Sequence record: LC739533.1
Reading direction: 5' to 3' (one strand)
Source: Escherichia phage phiWec179
Length of the DNA: 64,000 nucleotides
Shown: piece after piece, positions 1,137 through 53,513 of the stretch
Numbering within the stretch: the stretch's first letter is position 1
Layout: each line of letters opens with the position of its first letter
The notes under the pieces: generated by a model
What the model was told of the DNA's origin: nothing
Database searches by the model: none
The model's input: only the letters and a program-made list of their open reading frames with translations
Translations under genes and position numbers: made by a program

Positions 1137-1871
1137 TTACCCTCCGTTATTCGACGGTGTATTAGTATCTCTTGCAGCATTTTGGTTAATTGGGTTAGTG
1201 ACTTTAGCACCACCAGTTGGAGCCTTGCTCTTAACCTCGCCACCAGTAGATTTGTTCGGGGCAGTCTTCACAGCTATCGCGTTAGTTGTTGCAGTGCTGA
1301 CCAAACGAATCTGCTCCAATTCCAGGTTGAACTGCATAGCGAATTCTGAACGATATTCGTAAGTGTAACCTTTCAGGATCACGTTCTCGAAAGTACGGTG
1401 TTCTGTTAATAGAACTATCGGTTGACGAGCATCAAAAATCTGATCAAGGTACTCGATTGCTTGGGAAATACGTGTTCCATTAACCCCTGCACTGTAAAGC
1501 TGATCACGCATCAAACGTACAGGCGTTTCTGTAATAACACCTGTCAATTTAAAAGTGTTGTTGTTTATTTTGACGTTATCACTCACTGTACTGCCGGATT
1601 CAACAGGGAAGCTTGTGATATCTGCTGAACGAGTTACTCCAACTTCCGGTGCGGAGTCGAAAGTAATCGCCATAAAGTTTTGTATGTATTGATCACTTGA
1701 GCTATTGTAAACACTGGCTAAGATACAAAAACCGTTATCACCTTTCACCGTGGAGGCGGAGTTATTCGTATTTTGTGTTGAGTTCACCTCTTGCTCGGAT
1801 TTGTAGACGGCTCTTACCGACTGTTGTGGAGTCATTGCTGCCATGATAACCTCATAGTAATGGTAATGCAA
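1137..1871 (-). CDS. Hypothetical tail protein
   Basis: 244 aa ORF directly downstream (minus sense) of tape measure candidate; position-based call. Confidence 0.45.
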   Translation of the reverse strand: MHYHYYEVIMAAMTPQQSVRAVYKSEQEVNSTQNTNNSASTVKGDNGFCILASVYNSSSDQYIQNFMAITFDSAPEVGVTRSADITSFPVESGSTVSDNVKINNNTFKLTGVITETPVRLMRDQLYSAGVNGTRISQAIEYLDQIFDARQPIVLLTEHRTFENVILKGYTYEYRSEFAMQFNLELEQIRLVSTATTNAIAVKTAPNKSTGGEVKSKAPTGGAKVTNPINQNAARDTNTPSNNGG

Positions 1872-1947
1872 AGAGGAAGATGCAAGATCTTCCCATATTG
1901 ATTATGATACCACAAATGTCGTCGTTATGTCAATGTAAAAATAATTC

Positions 1948-3015
1948 TTGACTACCATGATCCGCCTTGCTACACTGTATTTATTAACTAAGGAGGAAAT
2001 TATGGGCGTGATTAAAGGTTGGGACATTCAGAAGAAAGAATGTGAAGAAGTGGCAAGACCAGGTATTACTGTTCTTGGATTTGTTGAACCGTGGAATGGT
2101 GCACATACCAAACTGATGCTGAAATGTGAGAAGCATGGGGAATGGAATACAACCTCCATCAACAACTTCAAAAAGAATGGTTCTGGTTGTAATGGTTGTA
2201 GAGCGGATATATGTGGTGCAAGAGCAGAAGGGAATAGCTTTGCAAGTAAAAATGCTATCTCAGATGAGCAACACATTAAGGATTTCTTGGCTACCGGATT
2301 GTTTGCAGAGGGGACAACCTTCGTCAATACAGGTGTGAAAACAAAAGGTAATCACAACTGCGTGTGGAAAGTAAGTTGCCCTGTTTGTGCTGTGGATGTA
2401 TATTCTCAAGCTGGTTTATGTGATGGTAGTTTTGAAGGTCTGACTACACACCTTAAGGCTGGAAAGGTTCCTTGTCGTTGCTCTCCACGTCATTGCTATT
2501 CTAAAGACCAATGGTTGTTTAGATTTCAGTTAATGTGTGAAGAAAAAGGTTATACTTTCATCAAGGCCATCTACGAAGGGGAAGCATACTCTCATGGAGA
2601 TGTTGAGTATGCTTGTCCAGAACACGGCTCACAACGCATGACTGTGAAGAACCTCATGTCAGGTAAAGGTTGTCCAGAGTGTGCCAATAAAACACAACAG
2701 TTCTGTTATATCAATGAAGTGTATGATGAAGATAATAATCTCTGCGCTCTTAAATTTGGAATTGCCAATGATGCTGAACGTAGGATCAAAGGTCAGAACT
2801 CGAAGAATGCTTTCACAATGCAACAGAAAGCTGTCTACTTCTTTGATGATATCAAGTCGTGTCGAGCAGCAGAAAGGAAGTGTTTGAAGATGTTGAAGTG
2901 CGGTGTTGTGAATAAATTTCAATTGCAGGATGGACACACAGAAACAACCCATCTGGACAATTACGAAATTATTGAGGCTATTTACGAAAGTTTTGGAGGG
3001 GTGTTACAGAAATGA
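1948..3015 (+). CDS. Cys-rich zinc-ribbon protein with C-terminal T5orf172/GIY-YIG-like domain
   Basis: Repeated C-x-x-C/C-P-E-H-G/C-P-E-C pairs; C-terminal LKFGIANDAERRIKG resembles the KIGxT..RL core of T5orf172 domain; opposite strand to surrounding tail genes. Confidence 0.45.
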   Translation: MTTMIRLATLYLLTKEEIMGVIKGWDIQKKECEEVARPGITVLGFVEPWNGAHTKLMLKCEKHGEWNTTSINNFKKNGSGCNGCRADICGARAEGNSFASKNAISDEQHIKDFLATGLFAEGTTFVNTGVKTKGNHNCVWKVSCPVCAVDVYSQAGLCDGSFEGLTTHLKAGKVPCRCSPRHCYSKDQWLFRFQLMCEEKGYTFIKAIYEGEAYSHGDVEYACPEHGSQRMTVKNLMSGKGCPECANKTQQFCYINEVYDEDNNLCALKFGIANDAERRIKGQNSKNAFTMQQKAVYFFDDIKSCRAAERKCLKMLKCGVVNKFQLQDGHTETTHLDNYEIIEAIYESFGGVLQK

Positions 3016-3040
3016 AAAAAGGGGCCGAAGCCCCTTTCTT
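3015..3040. terminator. Bidirectional rho-independent terminator between convergent genes
   Basis: A-run, GGGGC-CGAA-GCCCC hairpin, T-run; reads as terminator on both strands. Confidence 0.6.
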
Positions 3041-4994
3041 AGTTACCACCAGATTGTCCACTTAAAGTAGCTAAAGTTAAACGGTTGAAAACATTGTTAC
3101 CACTGTTCTGAATACGAGCATCCAACATATTACCAAACTCCGAAGACGGGTTGATTGTTACGTTGATCAGATCACTCGGAATAGCAATCGTGTTTTCTAC
3201 AATAGGTTGGTTACGAGCCAGATTAACGTTTGGCGTATAAGCTGTTTCACGCAAATTCTCTAAAGGATTCCCGAAACCGAAAGCATGTGTTCGAGTTTCT
3301 TCTCCTCGGAACATTCTTCCAACGTCTTGAGTATCAATTCCAGTCCACTTATAAAGGAAGTCGGCTACTGGGTTGGTATCTCCTGATTGTGTTGCGGCGT
3401 ACAATTTGTCCGGTATAGTTTTATTAGGATCAGAATCCGGTCCGAAGATAGATGGTAAGTTTGTCACTAACCATTTATTAATATCTTCCGTGATACCGAT
3501 AATCTCTGTACCAAACTTAGCAACATTCAGTGTGGCATTTGCAAACTCCACCCCAAGATTCTTGGCAAAATTGTCCAAAGATTTAACGTTATCTAACCAA
3601 GATTCGTCTTTAGGTATTGCACTCATAAATCCTTCCAGGAAATAGTTCTGCATCCCTTGACCAACCAAACCTATTGTTGCAGTTAAACGTGTGTACTGTT
3701 TAGAAGCTTCCATTTGCTCATTAGTCAATGCAGCACCAGTACGTTGAAGCATACGGAGGGTTTCTTGGAAGCCTTCTCCGTTCTTGCTAAACATACGTTG
3801 GTAATGCATGAGGTCATCTCCAAGGTTCTCAAGAAGACGACCAATCTGTGCCGAGTTCATGCCGCGACGCTCACCTTCATTCACAGTTGCCTGGATGAAA
3901 GCTAACGGATCGTTCTGCATGTGCTTAATTTGCGAAGGGTTCCAGCCGAACATGTTCATGATATCGTTGATACCGTTGTCCCCGCCACGCCATTTTCCTT
4001 TCTTCTCGTCCCATTCAGAAGCCATCATCGAGTTACCTAAACGTTCACGAACGTCTTTAAGGTTATCGATTGACTTGATAATGTTTGCCGAGTCAACACC
4101 GTTCTGTTCACCCCAAGCAGTCATTGTCATAATGGCGTTGGCGTTTGCCTGAACGTTCTCTGCACCACGACCTACAAACTTGATACGATCATTAGCATTT
4201 TGCAAAGTGTTCCCTACAACAGAGCCACCTGCAAATAACCCTGCACCGATCATAGAAGAAACCATCATACGAGGGTTAAGACCTAAAGCACCATCTCGCA
4301 TTTGGGAATACTTACGTTCCTTATCTCGACGTTGTTGTGCCAATTCTCGTTTATGGTTACGTTCAATATCGCGCAACTCTTTATCACGCATACGTTGACG
4401 TTGCTTGGCTTCTGCTTCCAGTTCTCGACGAATCCTACGGCGACCACGAACCTCATCCTCAATATCTTTCGTTTTTTCTCTGTGGGATTTACGAAGGTTA
4501 TCAAGCTGATGGGCCAGAGTTTGGTTCATACGTTGAAGAGTGATATCTCCACGTTTGTATGATTCTACAGAGGCATCCATGATTTGTTTTGCTTGGCGTT
4601 GTGCATCTATGGAAGCTTTGGTATATTGCATACCACGCTTCTCAAAATTCTCCATGCGGAGGTTGCCTAAATCGTTACGACGAGCTTGGAGTTCTGCTGC
4701 GCGTTCTTCTGGTGTTTTCTTACCTGGTTTCGTTGGACGACCAGGACCGGAGGTAGTTCCACCACCTTTTGGAGCAGAAGGGGGAGCAGGGCGAGCAGGG
4801 AAAGTCTGCGCTTTACGCATTTCTCTTTCGATCTCTTTCATCTGCTGCCTAAATTTACTCATGTTTAAGGTAGGTTGGATTTTTTCAGCGAACCTTTTAA
4901 TACTTTCGACAGAATCTTTGGCCTCTTTGAGACTGTTCTTGTCCACCTTAAATGTGACTACGTTACTGATTTTTGAGGCATTAATATCTAACAA
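3039..4994 (-). CDS. Tail tape measure protein (tentative)
   Basis: 651 aa, long charged coiled-coil region (REK-rich), Gly/Ala-rich segment; sits immediately downstream of frameshifted chaperone pair. Confidence 0.45.
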   Translation of the reverse strand: MLDINASKISNVVTFKVDKNSLKEAKDSVESIKRFAEKIQPTLNMSKFRQQMKEIEREMRKAQTFPARPAPPSAPKGGGTTSGPGRPTKPGKKTPEERAAELQARRNDLGNLRMENFEKRGMQYTKASIDAQRQAKQIMDASVESYKRGDITLQRMNQTLAHQLDNLRKSHREKTKDIEDEVRGRRRIRRELEAEAKQRQRMRDKELRDIERNHKRELAQQRRDKERKYSQMRDGALGLNPRMMVSSMIGAGLFAGGSVVGNTLQNANDRIKFVGRGAENVQANANAIMTMTAWGEQNGVDSANIIKSIDNLKDVRERLGNSMMASEWDEKKGKWRGGDNGINDIMNMFGWNPSQIKHMQNDPLAFIQATVNEGERRGMNSAQIGRLLENLGDDLMHYQRMFSKNGEGFQETLRMLQRTGAALTNEQMEASKQYTRLTATIGLVGQGMQNYFLEGFMSAIPKDESWLDNVKSLDNFAKNLGVEFANATLNVAKFGTEIIGITEDINKWLVTNLPSIFGPDSDPNKTIPDKLYAATQSGDTNPVADFLYKWTGIDTQDVGRMFRGEETRTHAFGFGNPLENLRETAYTPNVNLARNQPIVENTIAIPSDLINVTINPSSEFGNMLDARIQNSGNNVFNRLTLATLSGQSGGN

Positions 4995-19049: not shown

Positions 19050-19128
19050 GATATTTGGAGGCGGGAATCGGATTCGAACCGATGATCTCCAGCATATGAA
19101 ACTGGCGAGGACGACCAAACTCCTCTAT
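19050..19128 (-). tRNA. tRNA with anticodon CAU (Met or Ile2)
   Basis: Hand-folded: acceptor AGCGGGA/TCCCGCC (1:72 mismatch), anticodon stem CCAGT/GCTGG, loop TTCATAT, T-arm ATCGG-TTCGAAT-CCGAT, encoded CCA. Confidence 0.6.
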
Positions 19129-19134
19129 CCCGCT

Positions 19135-19205
19135 ATTAGGTGTCCCGTGCTGGATTCGAACCAGCATCACAATAAGTTGTGGATCTCTTATCCTGTAAGT
19201 CTAAC
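19135..19205 (-). tRNA. tRNA-like element, non-canonical (no standard anticodon arm found)
   Basis: Perfect T-arm GCTGG-TTCGAAT-CCAGC and near-complementary acceptor strands, but the middle forms a CACAA/TTGTG tetraloop hairpin instead; no encoded CCA. Confidence 0.3.
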
Positions 19206-19206
19206 G

Positions 19207-19280
19207 GGAAACTGGTTGTTTCGACAAGAATCGAACTTGTGTCTCACGATTATCAGTCGTGGGTTCTACCATTGAACTAC
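19207..19280 (-). tRNA. tRNA-Ile (GAU)
   Basis: Acceptor TGTTTCG/CGAAACA, D-arm GTTC-AATGGTA-GAAC, anticodon arm CACGA-CTGATAA-TCGTG, T-arm ACAAG-TTCGATT-CTTGT, encoded ACCA. Confidence 0.75.
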
Positions 19281-19286
19281 GAAACA

Positions 19287-36152: not shown

Positions 36153-37134
36153 TATCAGTGCACAAGTCATCGCCCAATCCATCAACGAAGAAGGACAGAT
36201 GATCACAACTTTCGAACTGGAATATCCACGCATCATCCATTCGGAACTGATGACACACCGCCTATTCTCCCGAAACGCTGCTTCAAGCCGCGCTATTCCC
36301 GTCAAGACTTTGATTGAGATGGTTCGCAACGAACCTGCGGCACCTGTTCGATTTGGTCAACACCAACCTGGGATGCAGGATCAAGGTGTAGAGTATGATG
36401 CTCTCATTGGGGTAGGTTATTCGAGTCGTGAGTGGTGGAATTTAGCTGCACTTAGTGCGGCAAACTTTGCAGAACAAATGGCGGAAGCTGGTTACGCGAA
36501 GCAGGTTTGTAATCGCCTTCTTGAACCATTCCAAAAAATGAAGACGGTTCTGACAGCAACCGAATATGAAAACTTCTGGTGGCTACGTGATGATGCTGAT
36601 GCTGATCCGACTATTGAAGCTTTAGCCAAAATTATGTTTGAAGCCTATGAAGCTTCTACTCCAGAACTACTGGCTCCAGGTCAATGGCATACGCCTTACG
36701 TAGATCATGTCTACGAGAACATTGGTTTGGAAGGTGATGATGTTTGGGTATTCAGTGGGTATAGCACTACAGATGAAAATGGCAATACTATCATGCTGTC
36801 GCTGGAAGAAGCACTTGCAATCTCTTCTTCTTGTTGCGCACAAGTGAGCTATCGTCGTCTGAATGCAACTAAAGATAAAGCTTTGGACATTTATGGACGT
36901 TTGCTTACCGGACGTAAAGTTCACGCTTCCCCTTTTGAACATCAGGCAACCCCAATGAAAAAAATGGATTTGTCAGGCTTAAAACGACAGGAGCATGGTG
37001 TTAATATTCCTCCGTTCCCGATTTCTTGGGAACCAGGCGTTACTCATGTAGATCGTAATGGTCAATTCTGGTCGGGGAATATGAAGGGTTGGGTACAACA
37101 TCGTCAACTTTTAGACAATCATACTAAATGGTGA
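36145..37134 (+). CDS. thyX: Flavin-dependent thymidylate synthase ThyX
   Basis: ThyX signature THRLFSRNAASSRAIP (RHR...SxR). Confidence 0.8.
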   Translation: MSNISAQVIAQSINEEGQMITTFELEYPRIIHSELMTHRLFSRNAASSRAIPVKTLIEMVRNEPAAPVRFGQHQPGMQDQGVEYDALIGVGYSSREWWNLAALSAANFAEQMAEAGYAKQVCNRLLEPFQKMKTVLTATEYENFWWLRDDADADPTIEALAKIMFEAYEASTPELLAPGQWHTPYVDHVYENIGLEGDDVWVFSGYSTTDENGNTIMLSLEEALAISSSCCAQVSYRRLNATKDKALDIYGRLLTGRKVHASPFEHQATPMKKMDLSGLKRQEHGVNIPPFPISWEPGVTHVDRNGQFWSGNMKGWVQHRQLLDNHTKW

Positions 37135-53236: not shown

Positions 53237-53513
53237 TGAAGTGAAAAGTTACGAAAGCAATTTCGTAAGCAATTGGGAAGCATGGGATGAGATGGGTGTT
53301 GGTGAACTCTATTTCTACAATGTAACCCTTCGTCCAGAATATCAACATCTCATTCCAGAAGGCACTGTGCAGATCGGTATGTTCATGTCTTCTCAAGACG
53401 GTGTTGTGCAGTTTGAGTTTTACTCTGACACAGAACAGAACGAATTCACTTATCGTGCATTCAATATCGTATTAGCTTTAGGAGAGGAGAAATTTTATGA
53501 CGACGAAGTATAA
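53223..53513 (+). CDS. Hypothetical protein
   Basis: Start set to ATG 53223 after RBS GAGGAGGAAG. Confidence 0.4.
   Translation: MAEFNEVKSYESNFVSNWEAWDEMGVGELYFYNVTLRPEYQHLIPEGTVQIGMFMSSQDGVVQFEFYSDTEQNEFTYRAFNIVLALGEEKFYDDEV

What the first reader, a model, noticed from the sequence alone, without database searches (positions are those of the whole stretch)
1948..3015. Cys-rich T5orf172-domain gene inserted antisense in the tail module
This is the only plus-strand gene inside 18 kb of minus-strand structural genes, and it ends at a bidirectional terminator, so it looks like an independently transcribed insertion. The protein combines multiple zinc-ribbon-like CxxC pairs with a C-terminal T5orf172 (GIY-YIG-related) region, consistent with a DNA-binding or nuclease function such as a homing-type element.
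Basis: partly seen in the sequence, partly recalled or inferred. Interest (0 to 1): 0.45.

Follow-up and report, generated by a model that had tools for sequence, protein, structure and literature searches.

The report
Freestanding homing endonuclease gene cassette
A selfish "homing endonuclease" gene, with its own promoter and terminator, sits between two tail genes of an E. coli phage; it is a well-supported but ordinary member of a gene family already described in phages.

Summary
The window is Escherichia phage phiWec181/186. Its only plus-strand gene in a ~38-kb minus-strand structural block is a 337-aa protein; the true start is ATG 2002, not TTG 1948. The protein has three Cys/His zinc modules, the middle one a strong CapR-homology domain, followed by a C-terminal T5orf172/GIY-YIG nuclease domain. 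The Pfam T5orf172 score is just below cut-off, but the predicted fold and invariant Tyr/Arg/Glu residues support it.

The gene is part of a ~1.1-kb cassette (about 1934-3038) with its own sigma-70-type promoter, ribosome-binding site and hairpin terminator. This cassette replaced the 32-bp spacer and terminator found in "naive" relatives such as phAPEC8.

The locus occurs in three states:
- naive, in about 127 cultured relatives;
- occupied, in this phage and seven metagenomic contigs, with alleles 46-87% identical at identical junctions;
- remnant, in PsgM04F, phiWec188/190 and one IMG/VR contig, which keep the cassette ends but lack the gene body.

The gene is under purifying selection (dN/dS 0.07-0.19), and its history is decoupled from its flanks. 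This fits a freestanding homing endonuclease of the family described by Barth, Dunham and Seed (2023). It is a new member of a known kind. Cleavage and homing remain untested.

The parts
1904..1933 (-). Resident sigma-70-type promoter of the Dit-like tail gene (TTGACA-18-TATCAT, TG-extended). Its -35 box (plus-strand TGTCAA, 1928-1933) is the last base shared with naive relatives, so it marks the left border of the insertion.
   Evidence: 11 of 12 match. The hexamers are conserved while the spacer varies in phAPEC8, anhysbys, L003, L004 and L006.
1934..3038 (+). The inserted cassette, the presumed mobile unit: left end TGTAAAAATAAT, promoter, 5'UTR, HEG ORF and hairpin terminator. It replaces the 32-bp GGGAAACGAAAAAACCCCGCCGAAGCGAGGTA spacer and terminator of naive phages. 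The right border is uncertain by about 4 nt.
   Evidence: Comparison of naive (L008, L009), occupied (window, L003, L004, L006, L007, L036, L037) and remnant (L001, L002, L015) sites.
1948..1976 (+). The HEG's own sigma-70-type promoter: TTGACT (1948-1953), 17-nt spacer, TG-extended TACACT (1971-1976).
   Evidence: In orthologs the hexamers (TTGACA/T and TACACT) and the 17-nt spacer length are kept while the spacer sequence differs.
1990..1996 (+). Ribosome-binding site AAGGAGG, 5 nt upstream of the start codon.
   Evidence: conserved in orthologous cassettes.
2002..3015 (+). HEG coding sequence, 337 aa plus stop (BDU12664.1 in phiWec186).
   Evidence: dN/dS is 0.07-0.19 against five orthologs. 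AlphaFold2 mean pLDDT is 87.6.
2059..2211 (+). Zinc module 1 (aa ~20-70): C42-x2-H45 ... C63-x2-C66.
   Evidence: C42, C63 and C66 are invariant in 37 sequences. It is one of three stretches matching the CapR HMM.
2281..2484 (+). Zinc module 2, the CapR homology domain (aa 94-161): C126-x2-C129 ... C158-x-C160.
   Evidence: This is the best stretch of the PF21817 match (whole-protein score 94.8 bits against a cut-off of 24.2). C126 and C160 are invariant, C129 and C158 at least 90% conserved. The motif matches the published CapR CxxC...CxC zinc finger (PMC8096241).
2587..2691 (+). Zinc module 3, DUF723/DUF4379-like treble-clef type (aa 196-230): C205-x2-H208 ... C224-x2-C227.
   Evidence: PF14311 at 22.1 bits and PF05265 at 20.1 bits, both just below cut-off. 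C205, H208, C224 and C227 are invariant.
2704..2982 (+). T5orf172 / GIY-YIG-superfamily nuclease domain (aa 235-327). Y236 lies in 'CYINEV', K251/G253 in 'LKFGIA', and R261, E291 and E314 ('DGHTETT') follow.
3015..3040 (.). Hairpin AAAAAAGGGGC-CGAA-GCCCCTTTCTT. It terminates the tape-measure gene on the minus strand (T6 tail) and probably the HEG on the plus strand (weaker TTTCTT tail). It travels with the cassette and is retained in the deletion remnants.
   Evidence: It is 100% identical over 23 bp in cassettes on backbones only 76-80% identical, whereas naive phages carry a different hairpin, CCCCGCCGAAGCGAGG.
3039..4994 (-). Tape-measure protein gene, the right-hand neighbour. Its 3' 560 nt, adjacent to the cassette, is a hypervariable block.
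1137..1844 (-). Dit-like tail gene, the left-hand neighbour (PF21821; mis-named 'tail fiber protein' in some records).

Best explanation
This is a freestanding homing endonuclease gene (HEG) of the T5orf172 branch of the GIY-YIG superfamily. It is carried on a self-contained ~1.1-kb cassette lodged between the terminator of the tape-measure gene and the promoter of the Dit-like tail gene.

Proposed mechanism:
1. The gene is transcribed by host RNA polymerase from its own sigma-70-type promoter, antisense to the tail genes.
2. The protein reads a long asymmetric DNA site with three tandem zinc modules (CxxH..CxxC, CapR-type CxxC..CxC, CxxH..CxxC).
3. Its C-terminal nuclease domain cuts the HEG-less allele of a co-infecting related phage.
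4. Recombinational repair from the HEG-carrying genome copies the cassette and adjacent markers, notably the tape-measure 3' end, into the cut genome.

The cassette brings a replacement terminator for the tape-measure gene, so insertion costs the phage little.

Shown here: the domain architecture; the cassette boundaries; the presence, absence and remnant states of the locus; purifying selection; and decoupling of the gene's history from its flanks.

Inferred, not shown: DNA binding, cleavage, the target site, timing of expression, and current mobility.
For: Architecture:
- CapR PF21817 scores 94.8 bits in three stretches, with sub-threshold DUF723, DUF4379 and T5orf172 matches.
- PHROG 681 'endonuclease' matches at E 4e-56.
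- All 37 family members hit CapR and 12 hit T5orf172.
- Zinc ligands and G253, R261 and E314 are invariant.
- BFVD hits are CapR-homology, GIY-YIG, T5orf172 and 'homing endonuclease' phage proteins.
- This N-terminal zinc-finger repeats plus C-terminal T5orf172 layout is the one described for phage HEGs in PMC10448857.

Mobility signature:
- The gene is absent from 130 of 132 related phage records.
- The cassette junctions are identical in eight occupied sites on backbones 76-98% identical.
- Cassette-end remnants survive in PsgM04F, phiWec188/190 and L015.
- L004 and L007 have backbones 96.5-99.6% identical, but their HEGs are only 76% identical.
- Between the window and L003, dS rises from 0.07-0.24 in tail genes to 0.88 in the tape-measure C-terminus and 0.99 in the HEG.
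- The L036 allele is mosaic: its ends are 90-96% identical to the window and its interior about 50%.

Function is maintained: dN/dS is 0.07-0.19.

Expression signals: the promoter hexamers and 17-nt spacing are conserved across a divergent spacer.
Against: - No cleavage site or target can be identified in silico. The three unalignable tape-measure C-terminal types all occur with the HEG, so the target is not obviously in that block.
- The T5orf172 HMM score of this protein is below Pfam's cut-off.
- No match was found to solved structures by sequence.
- The deep divergence of alleles at one site (down to 46% aa identity) could also reflect ancient residence with repeated loss rather than ongoing homing.
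- Strong purifying selection is equally expected of a gene co-opted for a phage-beneficial role.
Confidence: 0.8

Rival explanations
1. A domesticated HEG derivative retained for a phage-beneficial job. One candidate is a site-specific nuclease used against competing phages or satellites, like ICP1 Odn. Another is a DNA-binding regulator, like PLE CapR or I-TevI autorepression, acting on the back-to-back promoters at 1904-1976. In this reading the gene no longer homes.
For: - Purifying selection is strong: dN/dS 0.07-0.19 with saturated dS.
- The clade is anciently associated with a single locus (alleles down to 46% aa identity).
- The cassette places its promoter 14 bp from the -35 box of the Dit-like gene promoter.
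- CapR itself represses by binding a -35 region (PMC8096241).
- T5orf172 proteins in related coliphages (Inny, Muut, Mt1B1_P17) have been proposed as anti-satellite nucleases (PMC10448857).
Against: - The gene is dispensable. It is missing from 130 of 132 cultured relatives and was cleanly deleted in at least two lineages.
- The nuclease residues are invariant, so it is not a pure repressor like CapR, which lacks the nuclease domain.
- The DNA-binding modules are the ordinary HEG zinc fingers, not a captured RepA_N domain as in Odn.
- It matches no PADLOC defence model.
- Allele exchange independent of the flanks is the signature of a mobile element.
Confidence: 0.13
2. An inactive relic: a formerly mobile HEG that has lost nuclease activity and is drifting towards loss. 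Its presence would be historical accident.
For: - Deletion remnants in sister phages show the locus does decay.
- The T5orf172 HMM score is below cut-off.
Against: - The ORF is intact in all eight occupied sites, with dN/dS far below 1 in every domain, including 0.05 in the nuclease domain against L003.
- The catalytic-type residues and all zinc ligands are invariant.
- The promoter and ribosome-binding site are conserved.
Confidence: 0.04
3. A structural or assembly component of the tail module that happens to be encoded on the opposite strand.
For: Only its location between Dit-like and tape-measure genes.
Against: - It is absent from nearly all relatives that build the same tail.
- It has a nuclease plus zinc-finger architecture.
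- It has its own sigma-70-type promoter.
- Paralogs lie in non-structural regions.
Confidence: 0.01

Closest known systems
ICP1 and ICP1-like vibriophage T5orf172 homing endonucleases with CapR-homology zinc-finger domains (e.g. ICP1 gp174, gp165, gp121, gp53, gp130; Netter et al. 2021, PMC8096241; Barth, Dunham and Seed 2023, PMC10448857)
   Same: - Same layout: repeated N-terminal CapR/DUF723/DUF4379-type zinc modules and a C-terminal T5orf172 nuclease domain.
- Freestanding gene, located next to an essential structural gene; the tape-measure gene is one of the hot spots named in that paper.
- Repetitive, shuffled DNA-binding region.
- Sits at a boundary of genetic exchange.
- 173 Vibrio phage records match the protein by tblastn.
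   Different: - Different host and phage lineage: E. coli Stephanstirmvirinae, proposed genus 'Wecvirus'.
- Sequence identity to anything outside its own locus-specific clade is at most 47%.
- This particular insertion site, and its cassette with a substitute terminator, have not been described in the papers searched.
phAPEC8 gp013-type 'endonuclease' next to the ATPase gene, conserved across Phapecoctavirus and Justusliebigvirus
   Same: It is the closest cultured-phage homolog family, at 42-46% aa identity over the full length. It has the same domains and a similar C-terminus (GGILQE against GGVLQK). The window's own genome carries one copy at 33% identity.
   Different: That paralog is co-oriented with its neighbours, sits in a non-structural region and is present in nearly all relatives (206 records with at least 80% coverage). 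It therefore looks fixed. The gene studied here is antisense, sporadic and locus-polymorphic.
T4 Seg proteins (freestanding GIY-YIG HEGs, e.g. SegG) and I-TevI
   Same: - GIY-YIG-superfamily nuclease joined to separate DNA-binding modules ('beads on a string').
- Intergenic, with its own expression signals.
- Expected to spread by double-strand-break repair with co-conversion of flanking markers.
- I-TevI also contains a zinc finger.
   Different: - Domain order is reversed: the nuclease is C-terminal here and N-terminal in I-TevI and Seg.
- The nuclease is of the T5orf172 subtype (K-x-G in place of the second Tyr motif).
- DNA binding is by three zinc modules rather than helix-turn-helix or minor-groove elements.
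PLE CapR (Vibrio cholerae satellite repressor of the ICP1 capsid operon)
   Same: It shares the CapR zinc-finger domain with the CxxC...CxC motif.
   Different: CapR has no nuclease domain and is a domesticated repressor. Here the nuclease domain is present, with conserved catalytic-type residues.

Membership tests
T5orf172 / GIY-YIG superfamily nuclease | Match to Pfam PF10544 (T5orf172) at or above the gathering score | tested here: inconclusive
   18.2 bits against a cut-off of 20, E 0.0037, aa 235-327 covering profile positions 3-97 of 101. 12 of 37 homologs match at E <= 0.01 (best 6.3e-5), and 4 match the related MUG113.
T5orf172 / GIY-YIG superfamily nuclease | GIY-YIG alpha/beta fold of the nuclease domain | tested here: met
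T5orf172 / GIY-YIG superfamily nuclease | Conserved motif residues: Tyr in the first strand, K/Y-x-G second motif, Arg, and the catalytic Glu | tested here: met
   Y236 (at least 90% conserved), K251 (at least 90%), G253, R261 and E314 (all invariant) in the 37-sequence alignment at 23% mean column identity. Equivalence to I-TevI Y6/R27/E75 is inferred from motif order, not from a residue-level superposition.
T5orf172 / GIY-YIG superfamily nuclease | Metal-dependent DNA cleavage activity | not testable with these tools
   Needs purified protein and substrate.
CapR-homology zinc-finger DNA-binding domain (PF21817) | HMM match above the gathering score | tested here: met
   94.8 bits against a cut-off of 24.2, E 3.6e-27, three stretches, the best at aa 94-161 covering profile positions 3-67 of 67.
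CapR-homology zinc-finger DNA-binding domain (PF21817) | CxxC ... CxC cysteine set, shown to be essential for CapR DNA binding | tested here: met
   C126-P-V-C129 ... C158-R-C160, conserved in the family. The gap between the pairs is 28 residues here against 24-26 in the published alignment (PMC8096241).
CapR-homology zinc-finger DNA-binding domain (PF21817) | Zinc coordination and sequence-specific DNA binding | not testable with these tools
   Inferred from homology only.
Freestanding homing endonuclease gene (functional class) | Presence/absence polymorphism at one precise site among closely related genomes | tested here: met
   Occupied in phiWec181/186 and seven metagenomic contigs. Absent or remnant in PsgM04F, phiWec188/190, L015 and about 127 phAPEC8-like phages, at identical junctions.
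Freestanding homing endonuclease gene (functional class) | Self-contained intergenic gene with its own expression signals that does not disrupt its neighbours | tested here: met
   Promoter 1948-1976, ribosome-binding site 1990-1996, and hairpin 3015-3040 that also replaces the displaced tape-measure terminator.
Freestanding homing endonuclease gene (functional class) | Evolutionary history independent of the flanking genes (horizontal spread) | tested here: met
   L004 against L007: flanks 96.5-99.6% identical, HEG 76%. Window against L003: dS 0.07-0.24 in tail genes against 0.99 in the HEG. Mosaic L036 allele.
Freestanding homing endonuclease gene (functional class) | Site-specific cleavage of the HEG-less allele and super-Mendelian inheritance in mixed infection | not testable with these tools

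The most novel reading that the evidence does not exclude
The cassette may be the driver of a small 'HEG island' in which the endonuclease and the neighbouring tape-measure gene segment spread together. The evidence is of two kinds:
- The tape-measure C-terminal ~190 aa exists in at least three unalignable cassette types that all abut the HEG.
- In one HEG-carrying lineage (L005/L006) the tape-measure gene, ~850 nt from the HEG, is split by an ORF-less group I intron at its most conserved segment.

If the HEG cuts at or near that intron insertion site, the arrangement would be 'collaborative homing' of a freestanding T5orf172 HEG and an intron in a tail gene. The HEG would then be actively reshuffling a tail-length and tail-assembly determinant among coliphages.
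Probability: 0.15. Interest if true: 0.5.

Novelty: new member of a known kind. Interest (0 to 1): 0.3.

Why it matters
The result turns an unannotated 'hypothetical protein' in a proposed new phage genus into a specific, testable call: a T5orf172 homing endonuclease cassette.

It also gives an unusually complete natural series for one HEG site:
- naive sites;
- eight occupied sites carrying alleles 46-87% identical;
- deletion remnants that keep the cassette's terminator.

This is convenient material for studying the HEG invasion, decay and loss cycle, and how HEGs mark recombination boundaries next to tape-measure genes. For phage engineering or therapy with these coliphages, the gene could bias marker inheritance in mixed infections. 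The site also tolerates a 1.1-kb insert.

It does not change current understanding, because the family, its architecture and its liking for tape-measure neighbourhoods are already published.

Tried and rejected
Searches that returned nothing:
- NCBIfam: no match.
- PADLOC defence models: no match.
- PDB by sequence, with the single protein and with the family profile: nothing meaningful.
- IMG/VR peptide-pattern scan for relatives: none.
- JGI metagenome scan with the conserved 5'UTR 23-mer: none.

Searches with limited yield:
- The IMG/VR scan with the left-junction 17-mer gave 23 hits. Only one (L015) was a relative, and it is a remnant site.
- A second IMG/VR scan, with the right-junction and terminator pattern (AGAAATGAAAAARGGGCCGAAGCCCCTTTCTT), again hit only L015; as written, that pattern matches only the A5 variant of the junction.
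- A BLAST search with the remnant site mostly picked up the unrelated T4 regA terminator, which shares the hairpin.

Ideas considered and rejected:
- That the HEG-less sites of PsgM04F and phiWec188 are the virgin target. They carry the cassette's left end, the decayed last codons of the ORF (GGVL-stop, or frameshifted) and the cassette-type hairpin. Truly naive phAPEC8-type sites have a different spacer and hairpin.
- That homologs at ~75 kb in nepoznato, alia and similar phages occupy the tail locus. They are the ATPase-adjacent paralog.

Attempts that were not informative:
- I tried to infer the cleavage target from nucleotide differences at the tape-measure intron insertion site between HEG-carrying, remnant and naive genomes. 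The differences are synonymous and not diagnostic.
- The tape-measure group I intron was searched for in cultured phages. Only generic intron-core matches in unrelated phages were found.
Full report
**What the window is.** The first 8 kb is 100% identical to Escherichia phage phiWec181 and phiWec186. These are Stephanstirmvirinae, of the proposed genus 'Wecvirus' (PMC12695924). That paper does not mention the gene. Window position 1 corresponds to base 53451 of the phiWec186 record.

**The observation.**
- A plus-strand ORF runs 1948-3015. The record annotates it as CDS 2002..3015, 'hypothetical protein' BDU12664.1.
- The start at 1948 is an artefact of taking the first in-frame TTG. That TTG belongs to the -35 hexamer of a sigma-70-type promoter: TTGACT 1948-1953, 17 nt, TG-extended TACACT 1971-1976.
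- The real start is ATG 2002, 5 nt after AAGGAGG.
- It is the only plus-strand CDS in a minus-strand block running from record base 36247 to beyond 74000, about 38 kb.
- The protein has 21 Cys in 337 aa: CxxC at 63, 126 and 224, CxxH at 42 and 205, and CxC at 158.

**What the protein is.**
- Pfam gives a strong CapR-homology match: PF21817, 94.8 bits against a cut-off of 24.2, in three stretches.
- Three further matches are just below cut-off: DUF4379 (22.1 bits), DUF723 (20.1 bits) and T5orf172 (18.2 against 20, aa 235-327).
- PHROG 681 'endonuclease' matches at E 4e-56.
- In a 37-sequence family alignment with 23% mean column identity, the invariant columns are the zinc ligands (C42, C63, C66, C126, C160, C205, H208, C224, C227) plus G253, R261 and E314. 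Y236, K251, E291, D310, G311 and T313 are at least 90% conserved.
- This defines three four-ligand zinc modules: CxxH..CxxC, CapR-type CxxC..CxC, and CxxH..CxxC. They are followed by a nuclease domain with the GIY-YIG-type Tyr, Arg and Glu.
- All 37 family members hit CapR and 12 hit T5orf172.
- An AlphaFold2 model built on that alignment has mean pLDDT 87.6, and above 90 over the C-terminal domain.
- Against predicted viral structures, the hits are CapR-homology, GIY-YIG, T5orf172 and 'homing endonuclease' phage proteins.
- The CxxC...CxC cysteines are the ones shown to be required for DNA binding by CapR (PMC8096241).
- N-terminal repeats of CapR/DUF723/DUF4379 zinc fingers with a C-terminal T5orf172 domain is the architecture reported for phage HEGs. 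That report also notes that such HEGs cluster next to tape-measure, terminase and capsid genes (PMC10448857).

**The locus has three states.** Of 132 related phage records, only phiWec181 and phiWec186 carry the gene. The others align in two pieces spanning about 1.04 kb less.

| State | Where seen | Sequence between the Dit-like gene's -35 box and the tape-measure stop codon |
|---|---|---|
| Naive | phAPEC8 and anhysbys (sequence read); the other ~78%-identical records lack the gene but their site was not read | TGTCAA, then 32 nt GGGAAACGAAAAAACCCCGCCGAAGCGAGGTA, which is the tape-measure terminator |
| Occupied | window, L003, L004, L006, L007, L036 (both junctions); L037 (right junction only; the contig starts inside the promoter) | TGTCAA, then TGTAAAAATAAT, TTGAC(T/A), 17 nt, TACACT, GTATTTATTAACTAAGGAGG, ORF ending ...CAGAAATGA, then AAAAA(A)GGGGCCGAAGCCCCTTTC |
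| Remnant | PsgM04F, phiWec188/190, IMG/VR contig L015 | TGTAAAAATA, about 30 nt, then the cassette-type hairpin |

These comparisons come, with the remnant sites also.

- The inserted unit is therefore about 1934-3038. It brings its own hairpin, which replaced the native terminator and now also serves the tape-measure gene.
- That hairpin is 100% identical across cassettes whose backbones are only 76-80% identical.
- The ~30 nt in the remnants are recognisably the decayed end of the ORF. phiWec188 has GGAGTATTATAGAAATGA against GGAGTATTACAGAAATGA in L003. PsgM04F has GGAGGGGATTATAGAAATGA against GGAGGGGTGTTACAGAAATGA in the window.
- The C-terminal GG(V/I)LQ(K/E) motif is intrinsic to the family. 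It also ends the paralog at a different locus, phAPEC8 gp013 (...YGGILQEETC).
- So the closest 'empty' relatives are deletion derivatives, not virgin sites.

**Distribution and history of the gene.**
- A search of the large protein collection found orthologs at 87, 80, 72, 64, 64, 53 and 46% aa identity.
- Every one whose contig could be read lies at this position, between the Dit-like gene and the tape-measure gene on the opposite strand. Where a contig is too short to show a neighbour, the cassette ends or the tape-measure 3' end still match.
- All homologs in cultured phages are at most 46% identical and belong to a different, nearly universal paralog next to an ATPase gene. The window's own genome has one copy at 33% identity.
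- Orthologs are under purifying selection: dN/dS 0.07-0.19, and 0.05 for the nuclease domain against L003.
- The gene's history is decoupled from its flanks:
  - L004 and L007 are 96.5-99.6% identical in tape-measure, chaperone, tube and sheath genes, but only 76% in the HEG. The window's allele is closer to L004's (79% aa) than L007's is (74%).
  - Between the window and L003, dS is 0.07 (tube-like), 0.09, 0.19 and 0.24 (Dit-like). It then rises to 0.61 and 0.88 in the tape-measure N- and C-terminal parts, and to 0.99 in the HEG.
  - The L036 allele is mosaic. Its promoter, 5'UTR and last ~150 nt are 80-96% identical to the window, and its interior about 50%.
- The tape-measure 3' 560 nt next to the cassette exists in at least three unalignable types, and all of them occur with the HEG.
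- This matches the published pattern that nuclease genes sit at boundaries of genetic exchange.

**Mechanism.**
- The best-supported reading is a freestanding homing endonuclease.
- Expression would be from its own host-type promoter. This is inferred from the hexamers and spacing being conserved over a divergent spacer.
- A long site would be recognised by the three zinc modules, and the HEG-less allele cut by the GIY-YIG-type domain. Repair from the HEG-carrying genome would then copy the cassette and adjacent markers.
- The architecture, boundaries, polymorphism, selection and incongruence are shown. Binding, cleavage, the target and present-day mobility are inferred. I put this reading at about 0.8.

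**Rivals.**
- A domesticated nuclease or regulator (about 0.13). This cannot be excluded, because selection is strong and the cassette's promoter lies 14 bp from the neighbouring tail promoter's -35 box. However, the gene is dispensable in nearly all relatives. It keeps nuclease residues that CapR lacks, uses ordinary HEG zinc fingers rather than a captured RepA_N domain, and matches no defence model.
- A decaying relic (about 0.04). This is contradicted by dN/dS and by intact active-site and zinc residues.
- A structural role (about 0.01). This is contradicted by the distribution and the architecture.

**Comparison with what is known.** The gene works like, and by the tested criteria belongs to, the T5orf172 HEGs with CapR-type zinc fingers described in ICP1-like and other phages. 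One criterion is only borderline: the T5orf172 HMM score of this single protein. Biochemical criteria could not be tested. The gene differs from T4 Seg and I-TevI in domain order and in its DNA-binding modules. It differs from CapR in retaining the nuclease.

**What led nowhere.** NCBIfam, PADLOC, PDB sequence searches, the IMG/VR peptide scan and a JGI pattern scan gave nothing. The target site could not be deduced.

**Verdict.** It is a new member of a known kind. The well-resolved naive, occupied and remnant series is useful but not surprising. Interest is 0.3.

Noticed in passing
L006 7889-8195 (minus strand); L005 2610-2790 (cut at contig end): In two metagenomic relatives that carry the 64%-identical HEG ortholog, the adjacent tape-measure gene is split by an ORF-less group I intron (Rfam RF00028; 91.3 and 53.7 bits). 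The intron follows ...GMNSAQIGRL, the most conserved tape-measure segment, about 850 nt from the HEG. The window's tape-measure gene is uninterrupted at the equivalent place, which starts near 3854 on the minus strand. This may be a collaborative-homing arrangement.
   Followed up: partly
window 3039-3600 (tape-measure 3' end) and equivalents in L001-L009: The last ~190 aa of the tape-measure protein occur in at least three mutually unalignable types. Type A is in the window, PsgM04F, L003 and phAPEC8; type B in phiWec188 and L006; type C in L004 and L007. One boundary is at the HEG/terminator and the other near window 3600. Only the final ~12 aa (SLTLxTLSGQS) are shared.
   Followed up: partly
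L036 886-2050 (metagenomic contig ERZ928790): This HEG allele is mosaic. Its promoter, 5'UTR and last ~150 nt are 80-96% identical to the window's cassette, but its interior is about 50% identical (53% aa overall). This suggests allele replacement or domain shuffling between conserved cassette ends.
   Followed up: partly
L012 32116-33111 (phiWec186 record 149566-150561, outside the window): The same genome has a second CapR/T5orf172 protein (338 aa, 33% identity). It is co-oriented with and adjacent to an ATPase gene. This paralog (phAPEC8 gp013 type) is present in nearly all Phapecoctavirus and Justusliebigvirus genomes and looks fixed rather than sporadic.
   Followed up: partly
window 1904-1933 (minus strand) and equivalents in relatives: A near-consensus sigma-70 promoter (TTGACA-18-TATCAT, with TG) lies directly upstream of the Dit-like tail gene and immediately after the tape-measure terminator. 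Its hexamers are conserved while the spacer varies among relatives. This suggests host-RNA-polymerase promoters inside a 'late' structural block.
   Followed up: no
phage database records OR584014.1, MG065650.1, OP562383.1: 'Pseudomonas phage PsgM04F' is 97% identical to these E. coli phages. 'Campylobacter phage B15' and 'Acinetobacter phage vB_AbaM_ABPW7' are ordinary phAPEC8-like genomes. The host labels look doubtful or reflect polyvalence claims.
   Followed up: no
window 3015-3048: The cassette hairpin and its flanks match the T4-like phage regA terminator region (34 nt, 91%) in about 200 Tequatrovirus records. This is probably convergence on a C(UUCG)G-type stable hairpin rather than homology.
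   Followed up: no
window 19056-20550 and beyond: A minus-strand tRNA gene cluster (Met, Ile, Pro, Gln, Gly, Thr, Tyr, Ser...) follows the structural block, as annotated in the phiWec186 record.
   Followed up: no
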